From: Eledone cirrhosa
Taxonomy: Eukaryota
Reading direction: 5' to 3'
Assembly: GCA_964016885.1 (NCBI GenBank)
Contig: OZ024754.1
Location: 39,432,001-39,496,000, forward strand
DNA: 64,000 nucleotides
Positions 246 through 61,244 of the stretch are shown here, in pieces. Each line of letters opens with the position of its first letter. Position 1 is the first letter of the stretch. Position numbers and translations under genes: made by a program. A model generated the notes under the pieces. The model had not been told where the DNA came from. It searched no databases and was given only the letters and a program-made list of their open reading frames with translations.

Positions 246-330
246 GGTTTAGTATCGCTAAAAAGCTTTCTCCGATATTGTATTTATTTATATATATATA
301 TATATATATGTTTATCCCAGGTTCAATCAG

Positions 331-381
331 GGCTTCCTGATGATTTCTCCCGAATGAAACAGTTCTAGTTCTGTAGAAGCC
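331..381 (+). ncRNA. Type I hammerhead ribozyme fold
   Basis: GGCTTC (stem I) - CTGATGA - T TTC TCCC GAA T (stem II) - GAA ACAG TTCTAGTT CTGT (stem III) - A - GAAGCC (stem I'). Cleavage triplet GUA. Confidence 0.75.
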
Positions 382-419
382 ATTTCTATATTGAATATAT
401 ATATATAGAGAGAGAGGGG

Positions 420-12004: not shown

Positions 12005-12422
12005 AATGTGATAGAAAGATTGGAGCCCCTATATATAGACATAGACATACAAACAAAGATATGAAAAGAGTAAACAACACCTGTACTAGTCATTCGTTAA
12101 AATGTAATGTGGAATGTGTACAAGCACCATTTGAAAAGGCCTTAGGCCGTAAATTAACTGAACTGAAGTTAGTTTAAAGCTATGTTTGATAGTATCAATA
12201 ATCAGTGAAAAGATAAATATATACAAGTGATTAGAAACAGAGAATCTACAGCTACATGTAGTATGTCAGAGAGAACAAAAAAATATTTCACATATTTCAA
12301 ATAAAATGACAATGTTAGAAGAGGAAATTAATTAATTAATTAATATATATATATATATATCATCATCATCATCATTTTATGTCCGCTTTTCCCTGCTTGC
12401 AGGGGTGTATATATATATATAT

Positions 12423-12919
12423 AATAAATGTAATCTGAGTTTTTCAAATATTAATAATAACATTCGATTCATTTGCAATTTTGCAAACAAGCCTCAATTT
12501 TATAGCCATGTGAGGAGCATGATATGCAAATGATATGCAAATCTAGCTGATCAGTGGATCTGCTAATATACAGATCTGACTGATCAGCCAGTCTGCTAAT
12601 ATGCAAATCAGGCCAATCAGTCACTGTGTATTTTTGAAAATAGCATATATTTTCACTAGCTCTGACAGTTTGGCAGGTGAACAGTGAGTTGTACTGATGA
12701 AGGGTGATACTCAGAAACATTAGTGTCTGCAGTTCTGTTCGCATGCCAACACAAGAGCAAGAATGAAGTGTTCATTCTCCTCACATGGCTATAAAATTGA
12801 GGCTTGTTTGCATAATTGCAAATGAATCGAATGTTATTATTAATGTCTACTTTATGTAAACCCTTGTGGTTAATAAAGAAATCATTATTAATATTTGAAA
12901 AACTCAGATTACATTTATT
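12423..12919. mobile_element. Inverted-repeat element (about 95-bp arms) enclosing a hammerhead fold; Penelope-like derivative (inference)
   Basis: 12423-12517 is the reverse complement of 12777-12844 plus about 12888-12919, with a short insertion in the right arm. Flanked by TA tracts. Confidence 0.7.
12679..12740 (+). ncRNA. Type I hammerhead ribozyme fold
   Basis: GAGTTGTA - CTGATGA (12694-12700) - A GGGT GAT ACTC A - GAA ACA TTAG TGT C - TGCAGTTC. Cleavage triplet GUC (12725-12727). Stem I extends with GAACA/TGTTC. Confidence 0.78.
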
Positions 12920-12947
12920 GTATTCAGCCATGTAGAGCAAAATTTTC

Positions 12948-13010
<63 letters not shown>

Positions 13011-14909: not shown

Positions 14910-15026
14910 ATCCAGGGTTCAATCGGGGATAACCACAGTAAGGTACTCAATACATAGCAGAGTATAAATATTCAATATAGAAATGGCTTCTACAGGACTA
15001 GAACTGTTTCATTCGAAGGAAATCAT
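14910..15026 (-). mobile_element. Second copy of the 316-398 hammerhead-bearing element, truncated within the ribozyme core
   Basis: The minus strand reads ATGA TTTCCTTCGAAT GAAACAGTTCTAGTCCTGTA GAAGCCATTTCTATATTGAA, nearly identical to 340-395. Confidence 0.8.
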
Positions 15027-15969: not shown

Positions 15970-16457
15970 TAAAATACGTAGTTTAGAAAGCCACAACAAT
16001 GCAGAGGGAAATCTCGAGGTAGGAAGTGAATGATAGATAAGAGAAATAGGATAAAGTGAAAATTGAGAGAGACAAAGATGAAAACAAAACAAAGGTAGAA
16101 GGGTTACTGTAGTGGAGATTTAATCCCAATATTTCGGGCTCACGCCCATCAACAGGGGAAAGTTCCAAAAGGGGGGGAACAGGCTAAGCGGAGAAAGTTG
16201 TGATGTCGTTAGTTTTAACGACATCACAACTTTCTCCGCTTAGCCTGTTCCCCCCCTTTTGGAACTTTCCCCCGTTGATGGGCGTGAGCCCGAAATATTG
16301 GGATTAAATCTCCACTACAGTAACCCTTCTACCTTTGTTTTGTTTTCATCTTTGTCTCTCTCAATTTTCACTTTATCCTATTTCTCCTATCTATCATTCA
16401 CTTCCTACCTCGAGATTTCCCTCTGCATTGTTGTGGCTTTCTAAACTACGTATTTTA
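15970..16457. repeat. Near-perfect 488-bp palindrome (242-bp arms, 4-nt loop)
   Basis: Arms 15970-16211 and 16216-16457 with loop GTTT. I found only two mismatches (16040/16387 and 16154/16273). This explains the two identical opposite ORFs in the track. Confidence 0.97.
16124..16159 (-). ncRNA. Minimal hammerhead-like fold with a variant core (mirror copy at 16268-16303 on +)
   Basis: TCCC - CTGTTGA - T GGGC GTGA GCCC - GAAA TA T T - GGGA. Stems I and II are intact with a GNRA loop, but the core has U in place of the conserved A6. Confidence 0.5.
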
Positions 16458-20244: not shown

Positions 20245-22516
20245 TCATCATCATCACCGTTTTACGTCCGTTCTTCCACGCTAGCATGGGTTAGACGGGT
20301 TGTCCTGTTGTGGGCAGTGTCTGGTCGGCTGACCATGCCTTGCTCATACAGGAACTGATCTGGCTTGATTTCTACAGCTGGATGCCCTTCCTAACACCAA
20401 CCTCATTTACAGTGAGTGCTGGGTGCTTTTTCGTGGCGCCTACACGTCCACTTTACAGTGTGGGCTGGGTGCTTTTTTGCCGTGGCACCTCCACGACCAC
20501 CTTGCGGTGGGGGGAGTGGGGGCATATTGTTTATATGCTTCAGCATGTACCCATGGGAGGTCGGGTACCCTGTATTACTGCGTGACGCCAGAAGTCACGG
20601 TCGTGTGTCATTGACTTTGAGAGGTGTAGTTGGGTAAGGTCGGCTTTTATCACCTCATCCCAAGTCATCTTGGGTCTCCCCACTCCGCGGTTTCCATCAA
20701 CTTCTAGTGCTCTGCACCTTTTTATGCAGCTGTCATCCTTCATACGCATCACATGTCCATACCAGCGTAACCGCCTCTCCTGCACGCAGCATTTGATTCC
20801 TCTTATGCTCAGTCTCTCTCTCAATTCCTTTATGCTTTGTCGTTCACGTATATTACTGTTACACATCCATCGGAGCATACAGGCTTCGTTTCTCTCTAAT
20901 CTACGTAAGTCTTCCACCTTCAGCGCCCAGGTCTCACTACCATGCAACATCGCTGCTCGGATACACGCATCATACAGTCTGCCTTTCATTCTGAGGGAGA
21001 AGCCTTTTGCAGCTAGCAGTGGTAGTAGTTCCCTAAACTTCTTCCATCCCGTTCTTACCCTAGTTATTGTACTTTCTGAGCACCCACCTCCGCTGCTAAT
21101 TCGGTCACCTAGGTAGCAGAAGCTGTCTACTGTTTCTACAGGGCCCTCCCAGAGATTGGTGGTACTTGTTTCCTGTGGCTGTTTGCTTGCTGTTTCAGCA
21201 CAGCTGCTGCATGTGAATCCTACATTCTTAATTAAGCTTCCTGAGATCCCGCTACATCTCTTGTGTACCCATTGTTTGCATTTGAGGCAGAGAATGGAGT
21301 TCCTACCTACACCTTTCCTACATACTGAGCAAGGCCATTTCCCTGAGGGGATCTGGGTTCTGTTTTCTCGTCTACTTATAAGGACCTTAGTCTTTGTCAT
21401 GTTGACTTTGAAGCCCTTTCTCTCTAGTCCCTGCTTCCAGGTTTGGAATTTATTCTCTAGTTCTACCATAGATTCAGCTATGAGTGCGAGGTCATCAGCA
21501 TACAGGAGTTCCCATGGGCATCCGGTCTTAAACTCCTCCGTTATTGCCTGCAGGACTATGATGAACAGGAGAGGGCTAAGAACAGAGCCCTGGTGGACCC
21601 CAACCTGTACGCTAAATTCCTCGCTATACTCATTGCCAATCCTAACTTTGCTGACTGCTCCCCTATACATGGCTTGTACCGCTTTCACAAGCCATTCATC
21701 TACTCCTAGTTTTCTAAGAGCACCAGATTACTGCACGTGGAACTCTGTCAAAGGCTTTCTCAAGGTCGACAAATGCCAAGTAGAGTGGCTTACTTTTAAC
21801 TAGGTACTTTTCCTGTAATTGCCTCACAAGGAAGAGGGCATCAGTGGTGCCTTTCCCTGGTACAAACCCAAATTGCATCTCGTCTATATTCACCCGGTCC
21901 CTAATCAGCTGTGCTATAACTCTTTCTGTTACTTTCATGACCTGGTCCATCAACTTTATAACTCTATAGTTTCCTCTATCTAGTGCATCGCCTTTACCTT
22001 TGTAGCAGTTGACAATGATGCTGCTGCACCAATCTTTTGGTATGGCCCCCTCTAGTATTACCTGGTTAACGATACGTGTGGTTATAGTGTGACCTACAGA
22101 CCCAGATGCCTTCAGCATCTCGGCAGCTATACCCGATGGACCGGTTGCCTTCCCTATCTTCATATCTCTGATTGCCTTACTTACTACGCTGCCGCTGACT
22201 TGTACTGCTGGTCCCTCTATAGGGTCTACGTGGGGTAGGGTCTCTTCTTCCCATGCATTCTCTTCATTTAGTAATCTATCATAATGACTCTTCCATGCAT
22301 CTTTCTTCTCAGCACTTGTGAGGGCAAGCTCACCTTTATCATTCCGGATACACTTCTCTCCAATGACATCACAACTATCTCTGACACACTGCCTCGCAAT
22401 CTTGAATACCTCCTGTTTCTGGTCCTCACGTTGTAAAACATGCTTGAATTTTCTATCCTCTGCTTCCCTCCTAGCTAAGTATACTTGTCGCCTAGCTTCC
22501 CTCTTGGTCTCTATGT
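20245..22516 (-). mobile_element. 5'-truncated RTE-clade LINE (RT region, 3'UTR and (GAT)n tail)
   Basis: RT motifs QFGFVPGKGTTDA, FVDLEKAFDRVPR, GVHQGSVLSPLLF, LLYADD, FCYLGD and the C-terminal RRLRWYGHVMR...GRPKMTW. The 3'UTR (20245-20539) ends in short ATG repeats. Confidence 0.95.
20540..22515 (-). pseudogene. RTE reverse-transcriptase ORF, broken by one frameshift at about 21716-21722 and lacking the endonuclease domain
   Basis: ORFs 21714..22634 and 20540..21688 join as ...PRAVIW/ALRKLGVDEWLVKAVQAMY with a frameshift. The N-terminal part of the upstream ORF is microsatellite translation. Confidence 0.92.
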
Positions 22517-24051
22517 AATGTGTATGTTTATTATATGGTAGACCATGTGTGTGTGTATGTGTATGTTTATTATATGGTAGACCATATGTATGCGTGTGTG
22601 TATGTGTATGTATATGTATCATCATCATCATCATTTCATTTTACGTCCGCTTTTCCCTGCTTGCAAGGGTGGGACGGGAACTGATTCTAGCTTGAGCTTT
22701 ACAGCTGGATGCCCTTCCTAACACCAACCTCATTTACAGTGTGTGCTGGGTGCTTTTTGGCCGTGGCACCTCCACGACCACTTTGCAGTGGAATGATAGG
22801 GACCCCAGTCCCTATCATCTCAGTTCTACAGCTGAGTAAACTGGAGCAATGTGAAATGAAGTGTCTTGCTCAAGGAAACAACACATCACTCAGTCTGAGA
22901 ATTGAACGTATATGTATATTATGTGTGCATATATATATATAAGTGAAGAGATATGGAAATGTTTGGTTTGGTGTCCGAGTACGTGGTTAACCCACAGGAA
23001 GTGTGACATCCCTCGTCCTTATTAGGACATCATTCTAGGAGAAGGAAAACTCTGATGTAAAACCTGAGACTCAATGGCAGCCAATAATGTTGACCTGTTA
23101 TTCTTTTGGGGTACCTGAAACCATTGTTCTCAGAGAACAATGAGATTGTTCCAGTGTAAGACCTTTCTTCACTTAAAAAAAGCTTCAAACACAGGCATCA
23201 CTTGCTTTAAACATCTTTCACATTTGTTGCATGAGTATGTAAGCCCTTGGCAAGGCTAAAAAATCCTGTTAGTGCCACCCATGCATGAGAAAAGGCTTGT
23301 GTAATGGCAATTCTCAGTATTATTCTATGTACTATACATGCACCTTTGACGAGTTATAGTGCACCTGAGCACTGTACACAATAATTTCATTATTATTATT
23401 ATTATTATTACTAATAATAATAATGATGGTGGTGGTGGTGGTGATTGCTGAGGAGGGTTCCAAGTAGAATGTAGTTCCTGAGGAGGAGGACCAAGGAAAA
23501 CCTGAGCAGAAGTGGAGAGAGTTGACCTGATGGTGCTGAACATTAGAGAGAATATGATGAGGTGACAGGTGAAGTGAAACTGGAGAAGAGTCGTCTAACC
23601 CACACAACGATTGAAGGCTAGACATTAAAATGATGATAACGATGAAATTAAACGTAAACGATGATTTCTAATCCAACCCAAAGCGTAGTAAAGTCGATCA
23701 TATCAACCTCAGTATTTGACTGGTACTTTATTTTATCAAATTGGCAGAGTTGTTAGAACGTCTGATAGAATGCTTTGCAGTATTTGTTTTGGCCCTCTGA
23801 CTTCAAATCCCGTTGAAGTCAACTTTGCCTTTCATCCATTCAAGGTTGAAGTAGCAGCCTATTACTCAGGTTGTTTCTCCCTTCCATTCTCTGGACGAAA
23901 TCTGTTGTATTCAAACCTGGAGAGGAGATGGGCTCTGTCAGGTTTTAAAAAATACCTTATAAACGCTGTATGTGAATATGGCACCCCTGTGACTGCCCTA
24001 GGAGTTACGAGACCACACTTACATACATTATTTTATTGCTGTGCTTTAGAC

Positions 24052-43192: not shown

Positions 43193-43354
43193 ACCCGGGT
43201 TCATTCGGGGTATAACTACAGTAAGTAAGGTACTCAATACATTAGTAGAGTGTATATAACAAATTTAATATAGAAATGGCTTCTACAGGACTTGAACTGT
43301 TTCATTCGAAGCAAACAGTTCTAGTCCTGTAGAAGCCATTTCTATATTAAATTT
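43193..43354. mobile_element. Third copy of the same family, folded back as a palindrome (42-bp arms at 43261-43302 and 43313-43354)
   Basis: AAATTTAATATAGAAATGGCTTCTACAGGACTTGAACTGTTT / AAACAGTTCTAGTCCTGTAGAAGCCATTTCTATATTAAATTT. The leader matches 14911-14975. Confidence 0.85.
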
Positions 43355-43442
43355 ATTATATATATATATATTATATATATATATATATTATATATATATA
43401 TTATATATATATATATTATATATATATTATTTTTATATATAC

Positions 43443-44379: not shown

Positions 44380-45141
44380 AAACATACGCATGTTATATAT
44401 ACACACACACACCCATTTTACACACACACACACACACACACAAGCAGGGAAAAGCGGATGTAAAATGATGATGATGATATACCCAAGGGCAGTGCCCCAG
44501 CATGGCTTCAGCCGGATGGCTAGAACAGGTAAAAGAGTATATATATATATATATATATATATATCATTTAACGTCCATCTTCTATGTTAACACACACACA
44601 TACATGCATACGGAGCCGTAGCATGGTCGTAGCTTAATGAATAAAAGAATAATAATCATAGACAGAAGCTGAACTAAGAAAGCAGAAGGCAAGACTTCTA
44701 CAATCTCAATACCAGCAAGCCAACTAACCCCCCCCCCCCTCTCTTCCTCCGCCTTCTCCTCTACCACCCCCTCTTAACATGATTGTATATGCAATCCACT
44801 AGCAACAGCAGCAGTCTTTATATTCTGTTATGTGGTAGTTGTAGAATCAATGTTGGATCTAGAGATTGTTCCAAGACAGACAAGCAGCATATAACAAGCA
44901 TTACACAGAGAACTGTAAAAACTTCAGCAGCACAGGTTGGTTGGTTGTTTACCACAAACAAAGAACTGGTATTGCCAATAAATACATGATAACAGCAGGA
45001 GCTGTGTGTGTATGTGTGTTGTATGCACCCTGTATGAGTGTGCGTGTGTGTGTGTGTGCGTGTGTGTACTTTGGGCATGTGTGTGGGTAGTATGTGTAAG
45101 TTGTGTGTATGTGTGTACACGCATTATATATACATATATAT

Positions 45142-45182
<41 letters not shown>

Positions 45183-45356
45183 TATACATATATATATATA
45201 TATAGATACATATATATATACAAACATACATACATACATAGATATATATACATATATATACATACATATATATACATATATATATACATACATATATATA
45301 TACATATATATATATACATACATATATATATACATATATATATATATACATACATA

Positions 45357-45428
<72 letters not shown>

Positions 45429-45604
45429 CATACATATATATATACATACACATATATATACATACACATATATATACATACACATATATATACATACATA
45501 TATATATACATACATATATATATACATACATATATACATATATATATACATACATATATATATACATACATATATATATACATACATATATATATACATA
45601 CATA

Positions 45605-45642
<38 letters not shown>

Positions 45643-45850
45643 CAACATATATATACATATATATACATACATATATACATACATATACATACATACATAT
45701 ACATATATATATATATACATACATATACATATATATATATATACATACATATACATACATACATATATATACATACATACATATACATATATATATATAC
45801 ATATATATATACATATATATATATACATATATATATACATATATATATAC

Positions 45851-45971
<121 letters not shown>

Positions 45972-46002
45972 CACATATATATATATACACATATATATAC
46001 AC

Positions 46003-46035
<33 letters not shown>

Positions 46036-46376
46036 CACATATATATATATACACATATATATATATATACACATATATATATATATATACATATATATAC
46101 ATATATATATATATACACATATATATATATATATACACATATATATCTACATATATATATACACACATATATATATACACATATATATACACATATATAT
46201 ACACATATATATATACACATATATATATACACATATATACACATATATATATACACATATATATATATACATATATATATACATATATATATACACATAT
46301 ATACACATATATATATACATATATATATACACATATATATATACACATATATATATACACATATATATATATATGC

Positions 46377-46411
<35 letters not shown>

Positions 46412-46564
46412 CACATATATATATACATATATATATATATACATATATATATATACACATATATATATATATATACATATATATATACACATATATATAC
46501 ATATATACATATATATATACATATACATATACATACATACATACATATACATATACATACATAC

Positions 46565-46633
<69 letters not shown>

Positions 46634-46943
46634 CACATACATATATATACTATATATATATACACATACATATATATACATATATATATATACACATACA
46701 TATATATACATATGTATATATATACACATACATATATATATACATATTATACACATATACATATACACATATATATATACATACATATATATATATACAT
46801 ACATATACATACATACATATATACATATATATATACATACATACATACATATACATACATACATATATATACATATATATACATACATATACATACATAC
46901 ATATATATATACATACATACATATATATATACATATATATATA

Positions 46944-46974
<31 letters not shown>

Positions 46975-46996
46975 ATACATATACATATATACATAT

Positions 46997-47087
<91 letters not shown>

Positions 47088-47433
47088 CATATATATATAT
47101 ACGTATATATATATACATATATATATATACATATAAATATATACATATATATATATACATATATATAAATATATACATATATACATATACATATATATAT
47201 ACACATACATATATATATACACATACATATACACATACATATATATATACACATACATATATATATACATATACATATACACACAATATACATATACATA
47301 TATATATACACATACATATATATATACATATACATATACACATACATATACATATACATATATATATATATACACATACATATATATATATATACACATA
47401 CATATATATATATATATATACACACATATATAC

Positions 47434-47464
<31 letters not shown>

Positions 47465-47521
47465 CATATATACATACATATACATACATATATACATATA
47501 CACACACATATATATATATAC

Positions 47522-47666
<145 letters not shown>

Positions 47667-47905
47667 CATACATATATATATATACATATATATAAATATA
47701 TACATATATATATATATACATATATATAAATATATACATATATATATATACATACACATATATATATATACATATATATAAATATATACATATATATATA
47801 CATACACATACATATATATATACATATACATATACACATACATATATATATACATATACACATATATACACATACATGTATATATATATATATATACACA
47901 CATAT

Positions 47906-47946
<41 letters not shown>

Positions 47947-47949
47947 TAC

Positions 47950-47990
<41 letters not shown>

Positions 47991-48585
47991 CATATACATA
48001 CATATATATACATACTATATACATACATATATATAGATATATACACATATATACACATATATATACATATATACATACATATATATACATACTATATACA
48101 TACATATACATACATATATACATACATATATATATACATATATACATACATATATATACATATATACATACATATATATACATATATACACACATATATA
48201 TACATATATACACACATATATATACATATATACACATATATATACATATACATACATACATATACATATACATATATATATATACATACATACATATACA
48301 TATATACATATATATATATACATACATACATATACATATATACATACATATACACATACACATATATATATATACACATACATTCATATACATATATATA
48401 TACATACATACATATACATATATATATACATACATATACATATACATACATACATATACATATACATATATATATATACATACATACATATATATATACA
48501 TACATACATATACATATATATATATACATATATATATACACATATATATATATATATACATATATATACACATATATATATATAT

Positions 48586-48622
<37 letters not shown>

Positions 48623-49584
48623 TATACACATATATATATATATACACATATATATATACATATATATATACATATATATATATACACACACTATATATAT
48701 ACACACATATATATATATATACACACACATATATATATATACATATATATATACACACATATATATATAAATATATATATACACACATATATATATATAC
48801 ACATATATATATATACACATATATATATATATACACATATATATATATACACATATATATATATATACACATATATATATATACACATATATATATATAT
48901 ACACATATATATATATACACATATATATATATACACATATATATATATACACATATATATATACACATATATATATACACATATATATATATATACACAT
49001 ATATATATACACATATATATATATATATATATACATATATACACACATATATATATACACATATATATATACATATATACACACATATATATATACACAT
49101 ATATATATACATATATATATACACATATATATATATATATACACATATATATATACATATATATATACACATATATATATATATATATATACATATATAT
49201 ATACATATATATATACACATATATATATATATATATATATACATATATACACATATATATATATACACATATATATATATACATATATATATACACACAT
49301 ATATATATATATACACATATATATATACATATATATATACACATATATATATATATATATATATACATATATACACATATATATATATACACATATATAT
49401 ATATACATATATATATACACACATATATATATATATACACATATATATATACATATATATATACACATATATATATATATACACATATATATATATATAC
49501 ACATATATATATATATACACATATATATATATATATACACATATATATACACATATATATATATATACACATATATATATATAT

Positions 49585-49651
<67 letters not shown>

Positions 49652-49912
49652 CACATATATATATATACACATATATATATACACACATATATATACACAT
49701 ATATATATATATATATATACATATATATATACATATATATATATATACATATACATATATATATACATATATATATATATACACATATATATATATATAC
49801 ACATATATATATATACACATATATATATATATATACACATATATATATACACATATATATATATATATATACATATATATATACATATATATATATACAT
49901 ATATATATACAC

Positions 49913-49945
<33 letters not shown>

Positions 49946-49960
49946 TATATACATATATAT

Positions 49961-50003
<43 letters not shown>

Positions 50004-50128
50004 TATATATATATATATATACACATATATATACACATATATATATATACATATATACACATATATATATATACATATATATATATACACATATATATAC
50101 ATATATATATACACATATATATATACAC

Positions 50129-50175
<47 letters not shown>

Positions 50176-50196
50176 TATACATACATATATACATAC

Positions 50197-50241
<45 letters not shown>

Positions 50242-50372
50242 CACATATATATATATATATACACATATATATATATATACACATATATATATACATATAT
50301 ATATACATATATATATATATACACATATATATATATACATATATATATATATACACATATATATATATACAC

Positions 50373-50445
<73 letters not shown>

Positions 50446-50558
50446 CATATATATATACATATACATATATACACATATATATATACACATATATATATAT
50501 ACACATATATATATATACACATATATATATACACATATATATATATACATATATATAT

Positions 50559-50970
50559 GGTGGCTGCCAACTCGTTTTCGAGTACGGCCACTACTTTATA
50601 TCCATGTAGGAGAACCCCTACTGATGCGCTGAACGAGTGTGACTTTTTAGTCCAGCCAGCGACTTGAAAGCTCTGGTACAAACACTACACTTGTGACAAT
50701 TATTGACACATAGTGCTGGGCCCATGGTACCATGTGACGACAAATGCAGAGAGATCTCCAGATATAAAGCAATGCCTGTGCCGTGAAGCTTTTATAGTGA
50801 GCAAAGGCACTGCACAAAGCCAGTCCCACTCTCTTAACCAAGATGATATTTACCAAAAAGAAGAACAAGTCAACATCATTGGATACCATCAGGGTTGCAG
50901 GTGTTATATCAGAGTTTTCCTTCTCCTAGAATTCTGCCTTGACAAAGGCTAAGGGGTCATCTCTCCCGGA
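50559..50970 (-). mobile_element. Short bipartite RTE-derived element (5'UTR-like head joined to the ORF 3' end with a C2H2 finger)
   Basis: Head motif TCTAGGAGAAGGAAAACTCTGAT (also at 23034-23056 on +). 50618-50695 encodes [26 protein letters not shown] short 3'UTR runs directly into (AT)n. Confidence 0.7.
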
Positions 50971-51169
50971 CATATATATATACACACATATATATATATA
51001 CATATATATATATACATATATATATATACATATATATATATACATATATATATATACATATATACATATATATATATACATATATATATATACATATATA
51101 TATATACATATATATATATATACATATATAATATATATATACATATACTATATATATATATACATATAC

Positions 51170-51223
<54 letters not shown>

Positions 51224-51257
51224 ATATACATATACATATATATATATATACATATAC

Positions 51258-51292
<35 letters not shown>

Positions 51293-51310
51293 CATATATA
51301 TATAATATAC

Positions 51311-51524
<214 letters not shown>

Positions 51525-51525
51525 T

Positions 51526-51725
51526 NNNNNNNNNNNNNNNNNNNNNNNNNNNNNNNNNNNNNNNNNNNNNNNNNNNNNNNNNNNNNNNNNNNNNNNNNNN
51601 NNNNNNNNNNNNNNNNNNNNNNNNNNNNNNNNNNNNNNNNNNNNNNNNNNNNNNNNNNNNNNNNNNNNNNNNNNNNNNNNNNNNNNNNNNNNNNNNNNNN
51701 NNNNNNNNNNNNNNNNNNNNNNNNN
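51526..51725. other. Assembly gap (200 N)
   Basis: Run of N. The round length suggests a placeholder of unknown true size. Confidence 0.99.
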
Positions 51726-51837
51726 CGATCATATATAGTACATATATACTATACATATACATATATATATTACACATATATATATACAATAATATATCAC
51801 AGAGTATATATATACATATATATATACACATATATAT

Positions 51838-51876
<39 letters not shown>

Positions 51877-52010
51877 TATACATATATATATATATATACA
51901 TATATATAATATACATATATATATACATATATATATACATATATATATACATATATATATATACATATATATATACATACATATATATATATATATATAT
52001 ACATATATAT

Positions 52011-52041
<31 letters not shown>

Positions 52042-52050
52042 CATATATAT

Positions 52051-52081
<31 letters not shown>

Positions 52082-52092
52082 CATATATATAC

Positions 52093-52125
<33 letters not shown>

Positions 52126-52142
52126 CATATATATATATACTA

Positions 52143-52202
<60 letters not shown>

Positions 52203-52223
52203 CATATATATACATATATATAC

Positions 52224-52320
<97 letters not shown>

Positions 52321-52479
52321 CATATATAATATATATACTATATATATATATTACATATATATATATATATAATATATAATATATATATATATACATATAT
52401 ATATACATATATATATATATACATATATAAATATATATATAACATATATATATATATACATATATACATATATATATAC

Positions 52480-52599
<120 letters not shown>

Positions 52600-52600
52600 C

Positions 52601-52786
<186 letters not shown>

Positions 52787-52874
52787 CATATATATACATA
52801 TATATATATACATATATATATACATATATATATATATACATATATATATATAATATATATACATATATATATAC

Positions 52875-52945
<71 letters not shown>

Positions 52946-52992
52946 CATATATAATATACATATATATATACATATATATATATATACATATA

Positions 52993-53130
<138 letters not shown>

Positions 53131-53131
53131 C

Positions 53132-53170
<39 letters not shown>

Positions 53171-53245
53171 CATATATATATACATATATATACATATATA
53201 TATACATATATATATACATATACATATATACATATACATATATAC

Positions 53246-53282
<37 letters not shown>

Positions 53283-53283
53283 C

Positions 53284-53324
<41 letters not shown>

Positions 53325-53416
53325 ATATATATACATATATATATACATATACATATATATATACACATATATATATATATACACATATATATATATATAC
53401 ACATATATATATATAC

Positions 53417-53468
<52 letters not shown>

Positions 53469-53476
53469 ACATATAC

Positions 53477-53510
<34 letters not shown>

Positions 53511-53610
53511 ATATACATATATATATATATACATATATATACATATATACATATATATATATACATACATATATATATACATATATATATACATATATAT
53601 ATACATATAC

Positions 53611-53642
<32 letters not shown>

Positions 53643-53664
53643 ATACATATATATATACATATAC

Positions 53665-53711
<47 letters not shown>

Positions 53712-54020
53712 TATACACATATATATATATATACATATATATATACATATATATATATATACACATATATATATATATACGTATACATATATATACACAT
53801 ATATACATATATACATATATATATATACATATATATATATATACATATATATACATATATATATATATATACATATATATACATATATATACATATATAT
53901 ACATATATATACATATACACATATATATATACATATATATACATATATACATATATATATATACATATATATACATATATACACATATATATATATATAT
54001 ACATATATATATACATATAT

Positions 54021-54051
<31 letters not shown>

Positions 54052-54221
54052 TACACATATATATATACATATATATATATATACATTTACATATATATAC
54101 ATATATATACATATACATATATAATACATTTACATATATATACATATATATACATATACATATATATACATATACATATATATACATATATATATATATA
54201 CATATATATATACACATATAC

Positions 54222-54253
<32 letters not shown>

Positions 54254-54271
54254 ACATATACATATATATAC

Positions 54272-54318
<47 letters not shown>

Positions 54319-54335
54319 CATATACATATATATAC

Positions 54336-54368
<33 letters not shown>

Positions 54369-54371
54369 CAT

Positions 54372-54424
<53 letters not shown>

Positions 54425-54428
54425 CACA

Positions 54429-54506
<78 letters not shown>

Positions 54507-54563
54507 CATATACATATATATATATATATACATATACATATACATATACATATATATATATAC

Positions 54564-54616
<53 letters not shown>

Positions 54617-54830
54617 CATATATATATACATATACATATATATATACATATACATATATATATATACATATATATATATACATATATAATATACATATAT
54701 ATATATACCTATATATATATACATATATACACATATATATATACATATATATATATACATATATATATATAATATATACATATATATATACACATATATA
54801 TATATATACATATATATATATACATATATA

Positions 54831-55500
54831 TAACTTTGAATAACTTTGAAATGTTTTGGCCAGTATTGGCCCAGGCCATGTCTAACTTAATAGCACCACC
54901 TGGCGAAGTCTTTCAATTCAGGATTTGGGCACCATGGCCCATTCGAGAAGAGAATTACTGTTTGCGGAGACATATCCGGGTGTGGGTGGTTTGTCCGGGA
55001 TTACTTGGAGGAATTTGTCCAAAGACTTCTTGAATTTTGTGTGGTCAGTTTCTGTTTTGACGTGTCCTGGTGTGATGTTGAAGAGAGCAGGGGCCGATTG
55101 AGGTGAAATAATTGTGCCGTATTGTTGTTATGAGTTGCGATTTAGATTTTTGAATGGGACGGATAGCACGGGGCCCAAGCCTTGGGTGTATCTTGAAGGC
55201 GATGCCAACATCATTTGGGCAGTGATGATGGAACATTTTCCACATCATGCAGATAATATAACGCTCACGGCGACGTTGGAGTGAGTAAAGTTTCAGGTTT
55301 TCCAATCGACCCCAGTAGTCAAGGTCTGACATGCCATCTATCTTTTTCGTGATTGCCCTTTGAGGAGCTTCAAGTTTCATGATACTTTGTTTCGTGTGGG
55401 GAGACCAAAGTGGACAACAGTATTCAAGGTGTGGTCGGGCGAAAGTAGAGAAGAGAAGGATAATGGTGCGGGAATCTCTCGACTGGAAGGTTCTGAGGAT
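54831..55500 (-). mobile_element. CR1/L2-type LINE 3' fragment inserted in the TA array
   Basis: Translation LRTFQSRD...[14 protein letters not shown]...[35 protein letters not shown], continuing after a frameshift as ...FKKSLDKFLQVIPDKPPTPGY...NSL. The tail is (TTCAAAGTTA)2. Confidence 0.9.
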
Positions 55501-55508
55501 ATATATAC

Positions 55509-55539
<31 letters not shown>

Positions 55540-55540
55540 C

Positions 55541-55589
<49 letters not shown>

Positions 55590-55598
55590 ATATATACA

Positions 55599-55630
<32 letters not shown>

Positions 55631-55637
55631 CATATAC

Positions 55638-55686
<49 letters not shown>

Positions 55687-55706
55687 ATATATATATATTA
55701 CATATA

Positions 55707-55864
<158 letters not shown>

Positions 55865-55865
55865 C

Positions 55866-56100
<235 letters not shown>

Positions 56101-56101
56101 C

Positions 56102-56132
<31 letters not shown>

Positions 56133-56133
56133 C

Positions 56134-56164
<31 letters not shown>

Positions 56165-56165
56165 C

Positions 56166-56208
<43 letters not shown>

Positions 56209-56209
56209 C

Positions 56210-56240
<31 letters not shown>

Positions 56241-56241
56241 C

Positions 56242-56289
<48 letters not shown>

Positions 56290-56355
56290 ATATATATACA
56301 TATACATATACATATATATATACATATATACATATATATATACATATATATATAC

Positions 56356-56386
<31 letters not shown>

Positions 56387-56470
56387 CATATATATATACA
56401 TATATATATACATATATATATACATATATATATACATATATATATATACATATATATATATATATTCATA

Positions 56471-56528
<58 letters not shown>

Positions 56529-56550
56529 CATATATATATATATATTCATA

Positions 56551-56622
<72 letters not shown>

Positions 56623-56685
56623 CATATACATATACATATATACATATACATACATATACATATACATATATATATATACATATAC

Positions 56686-56790
<105 letters not shown>

Positions 56791-56799
56791 CATATATAC

Positions 56800-56942
<143 letters not shown>

Positions 56943-56997
56943 CATATATATATACATATATATATATATATACATATATATATACATATATATATAC

Positions 56998-57046
<49 letters not shown>

Positions 57047-57047
57047 C

Positions 57048-57078
<31 letters not shown>

Positions 57079-57135
57079 CATATATATATACATATATATA
57101 TATACATATATATATATATACATATACATATATAC

Positions 57136-57180
<45 letters not shown>

Positions 57181-57195
57181 CATATATATATATAC

Positions 57196-57242
<47 letters not shown>

Positions 57243-57301
57243 CATATATATATATACATATATATATATATACATATACATATATACATATACATATATA
57301 C

Positions 57302-57347
<46 letters not shown>

Positions 57348-57367
57348 ATATATACATATATATATAC

Positions 57368-57398
<31 letters not shown>

Positions 57399-57460
57399 CA
57401 TATATGTATATATATATATATACATATATATATATACATATATATATATACATATACATA

Positions 57461-57491
<31 letters not shown>

Positions 57492-57658
57492 TTACATATA
57501 TATACATATATATATATATATACATATATATATATTTACATATATATACATATATATATATATATATATTACATATATATATATTTACATATATATACAT
57601 ATATATATATACATATATATATATTTACATATATATACATATATATATACATATATAC

Positions 57659-57691
<33 letters not shown>

Positions 57692-57757
57692 CATACATAT
57701 ATATTATACATACATATATATACACATACATATATATACATATATATATATACATAT

Positions 57758-57792
<35 letters not shown>

Positions 57793-57825
57793 CATACATA
57801 TATATACATATACATATATATATAC

Positions 57826-57874
<49 letters not shown>

Positions 57875-57877
57875 CAT

Positions 57878-57908
<31 letters not shown>

Positions 57909-58103
57909 TACATATATATACATATATATATATATATATACATATATATACATATACATATATATACATATATATATACATATATATACATATATATACA
58001 TATATATACATATATATATATATATATACATATATATACATATATATACATATATATATACATATATATATACATATATATACATATATATACATATATA
58101 TAC

Positions 58104-58134
<31 letters not shown>

Positions 58135-58383
58135 CATATATATATACACATATATATACATATATATACATATATATATACACATATATATACATATATA
58201 TACATATATATACATATACATATACATATATATACATATACATATATATACATATACATATATATACATATACATATATATACATATATATATATATACA
58301 TATACATATATATACATATATATACATATATATACATATATATATACATATATATACATATATATATATATACAGATATATAC

Positions 58384-58416
<33 letters not shown>

Positions 58417-58428
58417 CATATATATAAC

Positions 58429-58489
<61 letters not shown>

Positions 58490-58500
58490 CATATATATAC

Positions 58501-58581
<81 letters not shown>

Positions 58582-59004
58582 CATATATATATACATATAT
58601 ACATATATATACATATACACATATATATACATATACACATATATATACATATATATACATATACATACATATATACATATACATACATATATACATATAT
58701 ATACATATACACATATATATACATATACACATATATATATACATATATATATATACATATACATACATATATATATATACATATACATATATATATATAC
58801 ATATATATACATATACATATATATACATATATATATACATATATATACATATATATATATACATATACATACATATATATATATACATATACATACATTA
58901 TATATATATACATATACATACATATATATATATACATATACATACATATATATATATACATATACATACATATATATATATACATATACATATATATACA
59001 CATA

Positions 59005-59040
<36 letters not shown>

Positions 59041-59121
59041 CATATACATACATATATATATATACATATACATATACATATATACATATACATATATATA
59101 CACATATATATATATATATAC

Positions 59122-59156
<35 letters not shown>

Positions 59157-59346
59157 CATATATATATACATATATATATACATATACATATATATATATA
59201 CATATATATATACATATATATATACATATATATATACATATACATATATATATATATATACATATATATACATATATACATATATATACATATATACATA
59301 TATATACATATATACATACATATATACATATATATACATATATACA

Positions 59347-59398
<52 letters not shown>

Positions 59399-59399
59399 C

Positions 59400-59430
<31 letters not shown>

Positions 59431-59524
59431 CATATATATATACATTATATATATATACATATATATACATAGATATACATATATATATATACATATATAT
59501 TTATACATACGTATATATATACAC

Positions 59525-59645
59525 ACATATTCACGTGTGTATATATATGCATACGTACACACATATTTACGTGTATATATATATATGCATACGTATATAT
59601 ATATACATATACACACACACATATATATATATTCACGTGTGTGTG

Positions 59646-59676
<31 letters not shown>

Positions 59677-59734
59677 ATATATATATGTATATTCACGTGT
59701 GTATATATATTCATACGTATATATATACACATGT

Positions 59735-59768
<34 letters not shown>

Positions 59769-60094
59769 GTATATTCACGTGTGTGTATTTATATACATAC
59801 GTATATATATACACATGTACACACATATATATATATGTATATTCACGTGTGTATATATATACATACGTATATATATACACATGTACACACACACATATAT
59901 ATATGTATATTCACGTGTGTATATATATACATACGTATATATATACACATGTACACACACACACTCACACATATATATGTATATTCACGTGTGTCTATAT
60001 ATATACATACGTATATATATATACACATGTACACACACATATATATATGTATATTCACGTGTATATATATACATACGTATATATTTACACATGT

Positions 60095-60128
<34 letters not shown>

Positions 60129-60377
60129 TCACGTGTGTATATATATACATACGTATATATATACACATGTACACACACACACATATATATGTATATTCAC
60201 GTGTGTATATATATACATACGTATATATACACATGTACACACACACACATATATATATGTATATTCACGTGTATATATATACATACGTATACATGTACAC
60301 ACACACACACCACACACATATATATATATGTATATTCACGTGTGTATATATATACATACGTATATATATACACATGT

Positions 60378-60409
<32 letters not shown>

Positions 60410-60451
60410 TCACGTGTGTGTATATATACATACGTATATATATACACATGT

Positions 60452-60485
<34 letters not shown>

Positions 60486-60590
60486 TTATATTCACGTCTG
60501 TGTATATATATACATACGTATATATATACACATGTACACACACATATATATATATATGTATATTCACGTGTGTGTATATATATACATATA
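59525..60590. repeat. Compound minisatellite, about 15 x ~68 bp
   Basis: Fixed cores TATTCACGTG, CATACGTA and CACATGTACA, separated by variable TA/CA tracts. Confidence 0.9.
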
Positions 60591-61244
60591 TTTTTTTATT
60601 TCTACACATTGATGATCATCCTCATTTTTACCCTCCTTGTATTTAGGTGCTTTTCACAGGCAGGGTGAAAATACTAACGTGTTTTAATATTGGCTTTTAT
60701 CATAAACCCCCAACTTGAATTAATACTACTACATATTTCAGATACTAAGTGTTTGACACCGAAAATTACAATTACAGCTATTCATCACACCAAAAACAAT
60801 TTAAATTTTTAAACAGCAATTAGTATTTAATGCGGATGCTTGAGAGGGGGGGGGGGGGGTAAATTCTGATTTCACACAAACCAGTCATTCTTATTATTCC
60901 TTATTTCTATTGCTGCAAAGTATGGCAGTGTTTCCCATCACCTAAAACTATTTTAACATATAAATATTTTAAAATTGTTTCTACTTTTTGGCACAATTAC
61001 TGGTGCTTTATTTTATTTTATCGACCCTCCTCAGGATGAAAAGCAAAGCTAACCCCAGCGAAATTTGAACTCAGAACGTACTGGGTCATAACTCTATGCT
61101 GCAAAGCATGGTATCTGACGCTCTACAGATACTGCCAATCCATAATAGAGGCAAAAAACACCAATTTAAAGCAGTAACGCTACCGTAATTTGTATGAAAA
61201 TAAAATTCTTTAAAATTGTATTATATATATCTATATCTAATAAT

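What the first reader, a model, noticed from the sequence alone, without database searches (positions are those of the whole stretch)
12423..12919. Foldback element whose loop holds a GUC hammerhead
Seen: ~95-bp inverted arms enclose CTGATGA-A-GGGT/ACTC-A-GAAACA TTAG TGTC. Stem I is 8+5 bp, and its deviations are G-U wobbles that keep the pairing. Stem III is one change away from the palindrome ACACTAGTGT. Established: palindromic stem III is typical of dimer-acting metazoan hammerheads. Inference: an inverted pseudo-LTR junction of a Penelope-like element; this is the best ribozyme candidate in the window.
Basis: partly seen in the sequence, partly recalled or inferred. Interest (0 to 1): 0.78.

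Follow-up and report, generated by a model that had tools for sequence, protein, structure and literature searches.

The report
Hammerhead retrozyme with Penelope insertion scars
This is one insertion of a common, non-coding 437-base repeat that carries a hammerhead ribozyme motif, and its fold-back shape is an insertion scar likely left by Penelope-type retrotransposon enzymes, so it is a new example of a known kind of animal mobile element.

Summary
The arms and the type I hammerhead motif are real (2 descriptor hits in the window; 1 of 200 shuffles gives any). The fold-back is not a fixed element. It is one insertion of a dispersed 437-bp head-to-tail unit (1,104 exact 34-nt core matches in the genome), joined to an inverted, 5'-truncated second copy. 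Across 114 loci, copies are 5'-truncated, 52 have inverted parts and 49 tandem junctions, and the 3' ends abut (TA)n. Of 30 inverted insertions with both ends at the two usual end points, 27 carry a ~30-bp tail on one side only, the signature of Penelope-like elements (PLEs). No copy had a reading frame in line, but 2 of 170 loci are fused head-to-head to truncated PLE reverse-transcriptase genes, pointing to mobilisation in trans. So this is a non-LTR retrozyme (non-autonomous PLE), not the pseudo-LTR of a coding element. Cleavage is unproven: the core is predicted to pair with its own helix III in monomer and dimer, this copy has two extra G·U pairs, and 5' ends do not pile up at the cut beyond a palindrome effect. 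Verdict: new member of a known kind, with unusually clear evidence for its mobiliser.

The parts
12408..12422 (.). (TA)n target remnant, left side
   Evidence: sequence; family ends abut (TA)n
12423..12522 (-). Inverted, 5'-truncated second copy of the unit (about unit positions 304-403, numbered on real copy L025); ends at the short end point, no tail, no hammerhead
12520..12541 (.). Head-to-head junction: 3-nt overlap with the inverted arm and an 11-bp direct duplication (12520-12530, 12531-12541)
   Evidence: sequence
12531..12844 (+). Forward copy, unit positions 63-376, 95.9% identical to L025
12533..12631 (+). Three 33-bp internal repeats; each begins with an octamer-like word (label recalled, promoter role untested)
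   Evidence: family D7
12679..12740 (+). Type I hammerhead motif: helix I 12679-12693 with 12728-12740, core 12694-12700, helix II 12702-12712 with an A·A mismatch at its base, GAAA 12714-12717, near-palindromic helix III 12717-12726, predicted cut after 12727
12845..12883 (+). Later 39-nt insertion: the 3' tip of a LINE (L1/Tx1-like by its RVT_1 + zf-RVT relative), flanked by a 9-bp target duplication; absent from the left arm
12884..12919 (+). Forward copy resumes, unit positions 368-403, up to the short end point
12920..12951 (+). 32-bp tail (unit positions 404-435), present on this side only
12959..12998 (.). (TA)n target remnant, right side
   Evidence: sequence

Best explanation
The feature is one insertion of a non-coding 437-bp hammerhead repeat (a non-LTR retrozyme), and its fold-back likely arose when a borrowed Penelope-type RT/GIY-YIG enzyme copied the RNA from both sides of a cut in (TA)n and the two truncated copies were joined at their 5' ends. 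Shown: unit size, copy number, variable truncation, tandem and inverted forms, two 3' end points about 30 bp apart, (TA)n flanks, two head-to-head fusions with PLE coding sequence. Inferred from the Poseidon in vitro work (PMC11167929): the two end points are two RT start sites, and both target strands are extended. Inferred: one strand uses each start site, giving a tail on one side only. Inferred: the template is a multimeric or circular RNA, because copies read through the intact cut site and into the next unit. Predicted only: the hammerhead is held off by pairing of its core with helix III and would cleave weakly, as a dimer or with protein help; this particular copy is likely a poor cleaver.
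For: 437-bp period. 1,104 exact core matches, reversed control 0; an older subfamily with 404 exact 20-nt matches. Inverted part in 27 of 54 and 25 of 60 loci; tandem junction in 25 of 54 and 24 of 60. One short plus one tailed end in 17 of 18 and 10 of 12 inverted insertions with both ends at the usual points, none short-short; 27 of 30, p = 2.6e-6 against independent choice. TA run at the 3' end in 42 of 54 and 40 of 60, background 305 of 1,512; at the left end 19 of 27 if inverted against 6 of 27 if not. L152: unit joined head-to-head, with at least 5 nt of microhomology, to a 5'-truncated RT + GIY-YIG gene 82% identical to L053; L153: a second such join to another PLE RT family. The genome holds many RT + C-terminal GIY-YIG elements with a CX4CxxC linker. 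Helix I is kept across subfamilies: 89.0% of cells paired against 87.3% shuffled (0 of 500) and 28-48% when slid. As a circle the unit folds at z = -8.4.
Against: No autonomous element sharing this unit's sequence was found, so the partner is inferred from only 2 of 170 loci, none in the last 60; a deletion between two neighbouring elements could also make such joins, and the L153 join has about 1 nt of microhomology. Only 20 RT/GIY-YIG loci were fetched at length out of 10,597 candidates. 22 of 52 inverted insertions had an end elsewhere and were left out of the tail count. Covariation is modest: 6 pairs change on both sides, reached by 59 of 500 shuffles; core and helix II were fixed by my search pattern in the older subfamily; the two outer pairs of the 8-bp stem are not kept there. 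Rfam does not recognise the motif. The active double hammerhead (-41.2) is 8 kcal/mol above the locked dimer (-49.2) in a model without tertiary energies. Only 9 of 113 loci hold two cores one unit apart, so most copies fail the two-hammerhead criterion for an active retrozyme. No pile-up of 5' ends at the cut.
Confidence: 0.83

Rival explanations
1. It is the truncated pseudo-LTR of an autonomous PLE whose coding copies were not sampled.
For: All insertion hallmarks are those of autonomous PLEs (PMC8557442 passages). Most PLE insertions are 5'-truncated. Few coding loci were sampled.
Against: In 49 of 114 loci the unit's start is preceded by the unit's own end, never by a reading frame. None of 20 RT/GIY-YIG loci has it as flanking repeat; the two hits there (L057, L067) are ordinary copies in the opposite orientation. 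A search for hammerheads with the same helix III but another helix II gave 21 matches, 20 reading as variants of this family and one (L139) with no family or frame nearby.
Confidence: 0.11
2. It is a satellite-like repeat spread by DNA-level processes, with a dead hammerhead relic and inversions made by repair.
For: The hammerhead is predicted misfolded; palindromic words alone attract symmetric junctions (12 against 11).
Against: Copies are dispersed over many contigs, mostly under two units long, with fixed 3' ends, free 5' ends, (TA)n targets and a one-sided tail; DNA-level spread predicts none of that. Helix I changes between subfamilies keep pairing.
Confidence: 0.04
3. It is a fold-back or MITE-type DNA transposon with terminal inverted repeats, and the hammerhead is a passenger.
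For: In the window, near-perfect arms enclose the core; TA flanks resemble Tc1/mariner targets (recalled).
Against: Half of the copies have no inverted part, and arm length and junction differ in every copy that has one. The arms are simply the unit's own 3' part.
Confidence: 0.02

Closest known systems
Metazoan non-LTR retrozymes (Cervera and de la Peña 2020, PMC7229834, passages read; Li et al. 2026, bioRxiv 10.64898/2026.07.22.740005, parts 1-3 of 5 read)
   Same: Non-coding 150-450 bp head-to-tail unit, GC under 45% (38% here), one type I hammerhead per unit, highly self-paired, many solo monomers, PLEs in the same genome. A mismatch at the base of helix II recalls axolotl HHR_Amex2 (U·U there).
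   Different: A·A rather than U·U at the base of helix II; helix III is 3 bp with a 10-nt self-pairing stretch; the core is predicted to be blocked by self-pairing, whereas the 2020 paper suggests blocking by another mechanism; mostly partial tandems, not long arrays; expression and circles not shown here. PLE-type inversion and tail statistics were not in the parts of these papers that I read.
Pseudo-LTRs of EN+ Penelope-like elements, Neptune/Nematis type (Craig et al. 2021, PMC8557442, passages; Cervera and de la Peña 2014, PMC4209133, parts 1-2 of 4)
   Same: 5' truncation, partial tandems, inverted 5'-truncated copy, 30-40 bp tail often on one end, microsatellite targets, hammerhead with an unpaired base after position 9, G10.1-C11.1 and a palindromic helix III.
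   Different: No RT/GIY-YIG frame; no shared sequence with the 20 coding loci examined; extra unpaired base also on the 3' side of helix II.
Poseidon element of Anolis, PAc (Frangieh et al. 2024, PMC11167929, parts 1-2 of 4)
   Same: Two end points one tail apart; AT-rich targets; insertion products read through an uncleaved hammerhead.
   Different: PAc is autonomous and its start sites lie in an AC-rich stem-loop inside the ORF; here the end points are T-rich and lie 140-175 nt downstream of the cut. The paper saw no strand difference in start site, whereas here inverted insertions pair one short with one tailed end.
MRC1 and other non-autonomous Chlamys PLEs of Chlamydomonas (PMC8557442, passage)
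   Same: Non-autonomous PLE forming pseudo-LTRs and head-to-tail multimers.
   Different: Those share 3' ends with autonomous partners and belong to a clade that mostly lacks hammerheads.

Membership tests
Type I hammerhead ribozyme | Core CUGANGA, GAAA and a UH cleavage site in type I order | tested here: met
   core columns differ in 3 of 231 and GAAA in 0 of 132 cells among 33 segments chosen on overall similarity
Type I hammerhead ribozyme | Helices I, II and III can form and are kept across variants | tested here: met
   (86%, 99%, 93% of cells paired; helix II fixed by selection in the older subfamily)
Type I hammerhead ribozyme | Helix II closes directly on G12 (no extra base after 11.1) | tested here: not met
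   An extra A lies on both sides of helix II, family-wide; other hammerhead families here, including a coding PLE's repeat in L054, have U·U at that place
Type I hammerhead ribozyme | Match to a curated Rfam hammerhead model | tested here: not met
   none among 6 matches at E <= 10
Type I hammerhead ribozyme | Self-cleavage | not testable with these tools
   folding predicts a sequestered core; no genomic trace of cleavage
Non-LTR retrozyme | Non-coding head-to-tail unit of about 150-450 bp, low GC, one type I hammerhead per unit | tested here: met
   437 bp, 38% GC; no frame of 150 aa over the element
Non-LTR retrozyme | [quoted passage not shown] | tested here: inconclusive
   met by 9 of 113 loci, not by the window copy
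Non-LTR retrozyme | Expressed as linear and circular monomers | not testable with these tools
   no RNA holder listed
Penelope-like element, autonomous | RT + GIY-YIG frame between pseudo-LTRs | tested here: not met
   none in line in 170 unit-anchored loci; none of 20 coding loci flanked by the unit
Penelope-like insertion mode | 5' truncation, partial tandems, inverted 5' copy | tested here: met
Penelope-like insertion mode | 30-40 bp tail, often on one end only | tested here: met
   27 of 30
Penelope-like insertion mode | Microsatellite target bias | tested here: met
   82 of 114 3' ends against 305 of 1,512 background windows
Neptune clade as mobiliser | C-terminal GIY-YIG with CX2-5CxxC linker; placement in an RT tree | tested here: inconclusive
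   linker motif present in L053, but Nematis shares such a motif and no tree was built
TIR or fold-back DNA transposon | Fixed terminal inverted repeats shared by copies | tested here: not met

The most novel reading that the evidence does not exclude
A retrozyme caught in the act of borrowing PLE machinery: a dimeric Neptune/Nematis-type enzyme primes the two target strands at two different start sites in a fixed pairing, can carry a retrozyme RNA on one side and its own mRNA on the other (chimeric insertions), and the retrozyme protects its template with a self-locking hammerhead whose one departure from a perfect palindrome lets helix III pair with the catalytic core.
Probability: 0.35. Interest if true: 0.62.

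Novelty: new member of a known kind. Interest (0 to 1): 0.38.

Why it matters
That animal retrozymes are moved by Penelope-like elements has been argued from co-occurrence and from shared repeats in frogs; the 2026 preprint says invertebrates and the life cycle were not addressed. This family supplies insertion-level evidence: the PLE tail, inversions, (TA)n targets and two fusions with PLE coding sequence. The near-strict one-tail-per-insertion rule gives a testable prediction for how a PLE dimer uses its two RT start sites. The single copy in the window is itself ordinary and probably a weak ribozyme.

Tried and rejected
1) Genomic trace of self-cleavage. 5' ends seemed to cluster at the cut: exclusion patterns gave 74 hits at the cut against 21 and 13 ten bases either side, or 62, 20 and 12 after removing same-strand deletions. 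But the cut lies in a 6-bp palindrome, and symmetric junctions there (12) are matched at the next palindrome 14 nt downstream (11); a third palindrome gave 4, of which 2 are family copies. In 164 unselected loci, 6 of 89 ends fell at the cut against 3.2 expected, p = 0.10, and 5 at the control site. Rejected. 2) Autonomous partner by shared sequence: none in 20 short and 20 long GIY-YIG loci or by a divergent-helix-II pattern. 3) More chimeras: none in 60 further loci; L194, L199 and L216 hold PLE fragments not joined to the unit. 4) Expression: no RNA holder listed; two contig sets were laid and showed only copy variation and inversion joints. 5) Rfam: only microsatellite-driven matches among the best 150 of 690 listed for the window and no hammerhead locally. 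6) Site-specific SINE targeting of the unit: the SINE uses the same ATTAT-type site in many unrelated places. 7) Earlier findings: nothing by sequence or words. 8) Literature: searches for hammerhead + Penelope-like + octopus, hammerhead + octopus + ribozyme, and a six-term retrozyme search showed no paper on this family; supplements of the retrozyme and PLE-hammerhead papers were not seen and could list it.

Full report
Observation. The left arm 12423-12522 is the reverse complement of 12772-12919, with 3 mismatches and a 48-nt gap. The gap is a 39-nt insertion with a 9-bp target duplication; it matches the 3' tip of a LINE seen in L040 and L123, whose coding part matches an RVT_1 + zf-RVT frame in L055. 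It is missing from the left arm, so it came later. Between the arms lies a type I hammerhead motif with the stated helices and a predicted cut after 12727. A descriptor needing helix I of 5 bp, II of 3 and III of 2 hits two places in the window and 1 of 200 shuffles. Rfam gives no hammerhead match.

What it is. The window lies on contig C14 of a 3.0-Gb animal genome; size, microsatellites and SINEs resemble an octopus (recalled, not tested). The core region has many near-identical copies on many contigs. A real copy, L025, shows a 437-bp period: the unit's end runs into its own start. The 34-nt hammerhead centre occurs 1,104 times exactly, the reversed control 0 times; an older subfamily, 77-90% identical over its main segments, gives 404 exact matches to a 20-nt word. 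The window copy is an inverted piece (about positions 304-403) joined head-to-head to a forward piece (63-435), with (TA)n on both sides.

Insertion pattern. I scored 54 insertions (30 best BLAST loci and 30 position-ordered core matches, less 6 repeats of the same insertion) and 60 further position-ordered loci (L206 and L207 look like duplicates and were kept). An inverted part occurs in 27 of 54 and 25 of 60, a tandem junction in 25 of 54 and 24 of 60. 5' ends and junctions are free; 3' ends fall mostly at two points about 30 bp apart (45 of 54 and 45 of 60). Where both outer ends of an inverted insertion sit at these points, one is short and one tailed in 17 of 18 and 10 of 12, never short-short (27 of 30, p = 2.6e-6); 22 other inverted insertions had an end elsewhere and were left out. 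A TA run follows the 3' end in 42 of 54 and 40 of 60, against 305 of 1,512 background windows. These are the PLE hallmarks listed by Craig et al. 2021 (PMC8557442, passages), and the tail equals the gap between two RT start sites in the Poseidon in vitro study (PMC11167929, parts 1-2 of 4). A DNA transposon with fixed arms is excluded.

No coding frame, but a likely helper. The genome has many RT + C-terminal GIY-YIG elements (150 scored of 10,597 candidates; frames up to 1,096 aa) with a CX4CxxC linker, that is Neptune or Nematis type. None of 20 long loci uses this unit as its repeat, and none of 170 unit-anchored loci (7 of them repeats) has a frame joined in line. Two loci have a truncated unit fused head-to-head to a truncated PLE gene: L152, with at least 5 nt of microhomology to a gene 82% identical to L053 that runs on through GIY-YIG and ends in (TA)n, and L153, to another RT family with about 1 nt of overlap. 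The simplest reading is that the two sides of one cut were primed on different RNAs. A deletion between neighbours is not excluded, and the last 60 loci held no further case.

The hammerhead. The family majority has Watson-Crick pairs where the window has G·U at 12689 and 12711. The A on each side of helix II is family-wide; several other hammerhead families in this genome, including the repeat of a coding PLE (L054), have U·U there, as does axolotl HHR_Amex2 (PMC7229834, passages). The base after position 9, G10.1-C11.1 and the palindromic helix III fit the PLE type (PMC4209133, parts 1-2 of 4). In 38 aligned copies (14 young; 24 of 30 older, 6 dropped for deletions) 89.0% of cells pair, above all 500 shuffles and far above slid controls; only 6 pairs change on both sides (59 of 500 shuffles reach this), and the conserved proximal helix I is 6 bp, not 8. 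Folding puts the core in a 7-bp helix with helix III at probability 0.8-1.0, in the circle, in the window context and in both older copies tried. For the majority type the double hammerhead (-41.2 kcal/mol) equals two locked monomers (-41.4) but lies above the locked dimer (-49.2); for the window copy it is -24.6 against -29.0 and -36.8. These energies omit tertiary contacts. Only 9 of 113 loci have two cores one unit apart. I tested whether 5' ends cluster at the cut; the excess is explained by a palindrome there. Published parallels warn likewise: 8 of 9 frog retrozyme dimers did not cleave (bioRxiv 2026.07.22.740005, parts 1-3 of 5), and the Poseidon hammerhead needed protein and was dispensable for insertion in vitro.

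Mechanism. Likely: a tandem copy is transcribed; the multimer, or a circle made after rare or protein-assisted cleavage, is bound by a PLE protein; the enzyme nicks both strands of (TA)n and primes at the two start points, one per strand; the copies stop early and join through short microhomology. Copies that read across the intact cut site and into the next unit show that a cleaved linear monomer was not the usual template. I put family-level cleavage in some context at about 0.55 and cleavage by the window monomer at about 0.15 (judgement, no test).

Verdict. A new member of the non-LTR retrozymes (non-autonomous PLEs). Three literature searches showed no paper on this family, but supplements were not seen. 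The added value is the insertion-level evidence for PLE mobilisation in an invertebrate and the one-tail rule. Interest 0.38.

Noticed in passing
window 320-395 (+), also about 14968-15026 (-) and 43263-43356: A second, much shorter hammerhead family (core at 337, U·U at the base of helix II), three pieces in the window and many in fetched loci, often with an inverted piece beside it; likely another mini PLE or retrozyme.
   Followed up: partly
window about 16061-16365: A near-perfect palindrome of about 300 bp with no spacer; its outer part also occurs as an inverted pair in L058. Possibly a symmetric inversion of another repeat's end.
   Followed up: partly
unit positions 368-385 in L003, L005, L009, L015, L016, L083, L084, L089, L090, L106, L113, L119, L130: One 188-bp SINE has inserted independently many times at the same site of the retrozyme, with different 5' ends and target duplications; the window's LINE tip sits at the same site. 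The SINE uses similar ATTAT sites elsewhere too.
   Followed up: partly
window 20540-22640 (-): Frameshifted LINE reverse-transcriptase remnant with RVT_1 matches and a PHD-finger match after the RT part.
   Followed up: no
window about 44900-60600: About 15 kb of very low-GC, strongly C-skewed simple tandem sequence.
   Followed up: no
L061 9068 and 9579; L052 7700 and 8159: Other head-to-tail units with hammerhead-like cores, periods 511 and 459 bp; the L061 one passes the full descriptor with a palindromic helix III.
   Followed up: no
L221, L229, L246, L296, L307: Copies with internal deletions that remove part or all of the hammerhead interior, several between the two helix I strands.
   Followed up: no
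coded run X4 (organism B): Three contigs of a second organism match the unit, one with 4 differences over 180 nt, so the family may extend to a related species; depth is low.
   Followed up: partly
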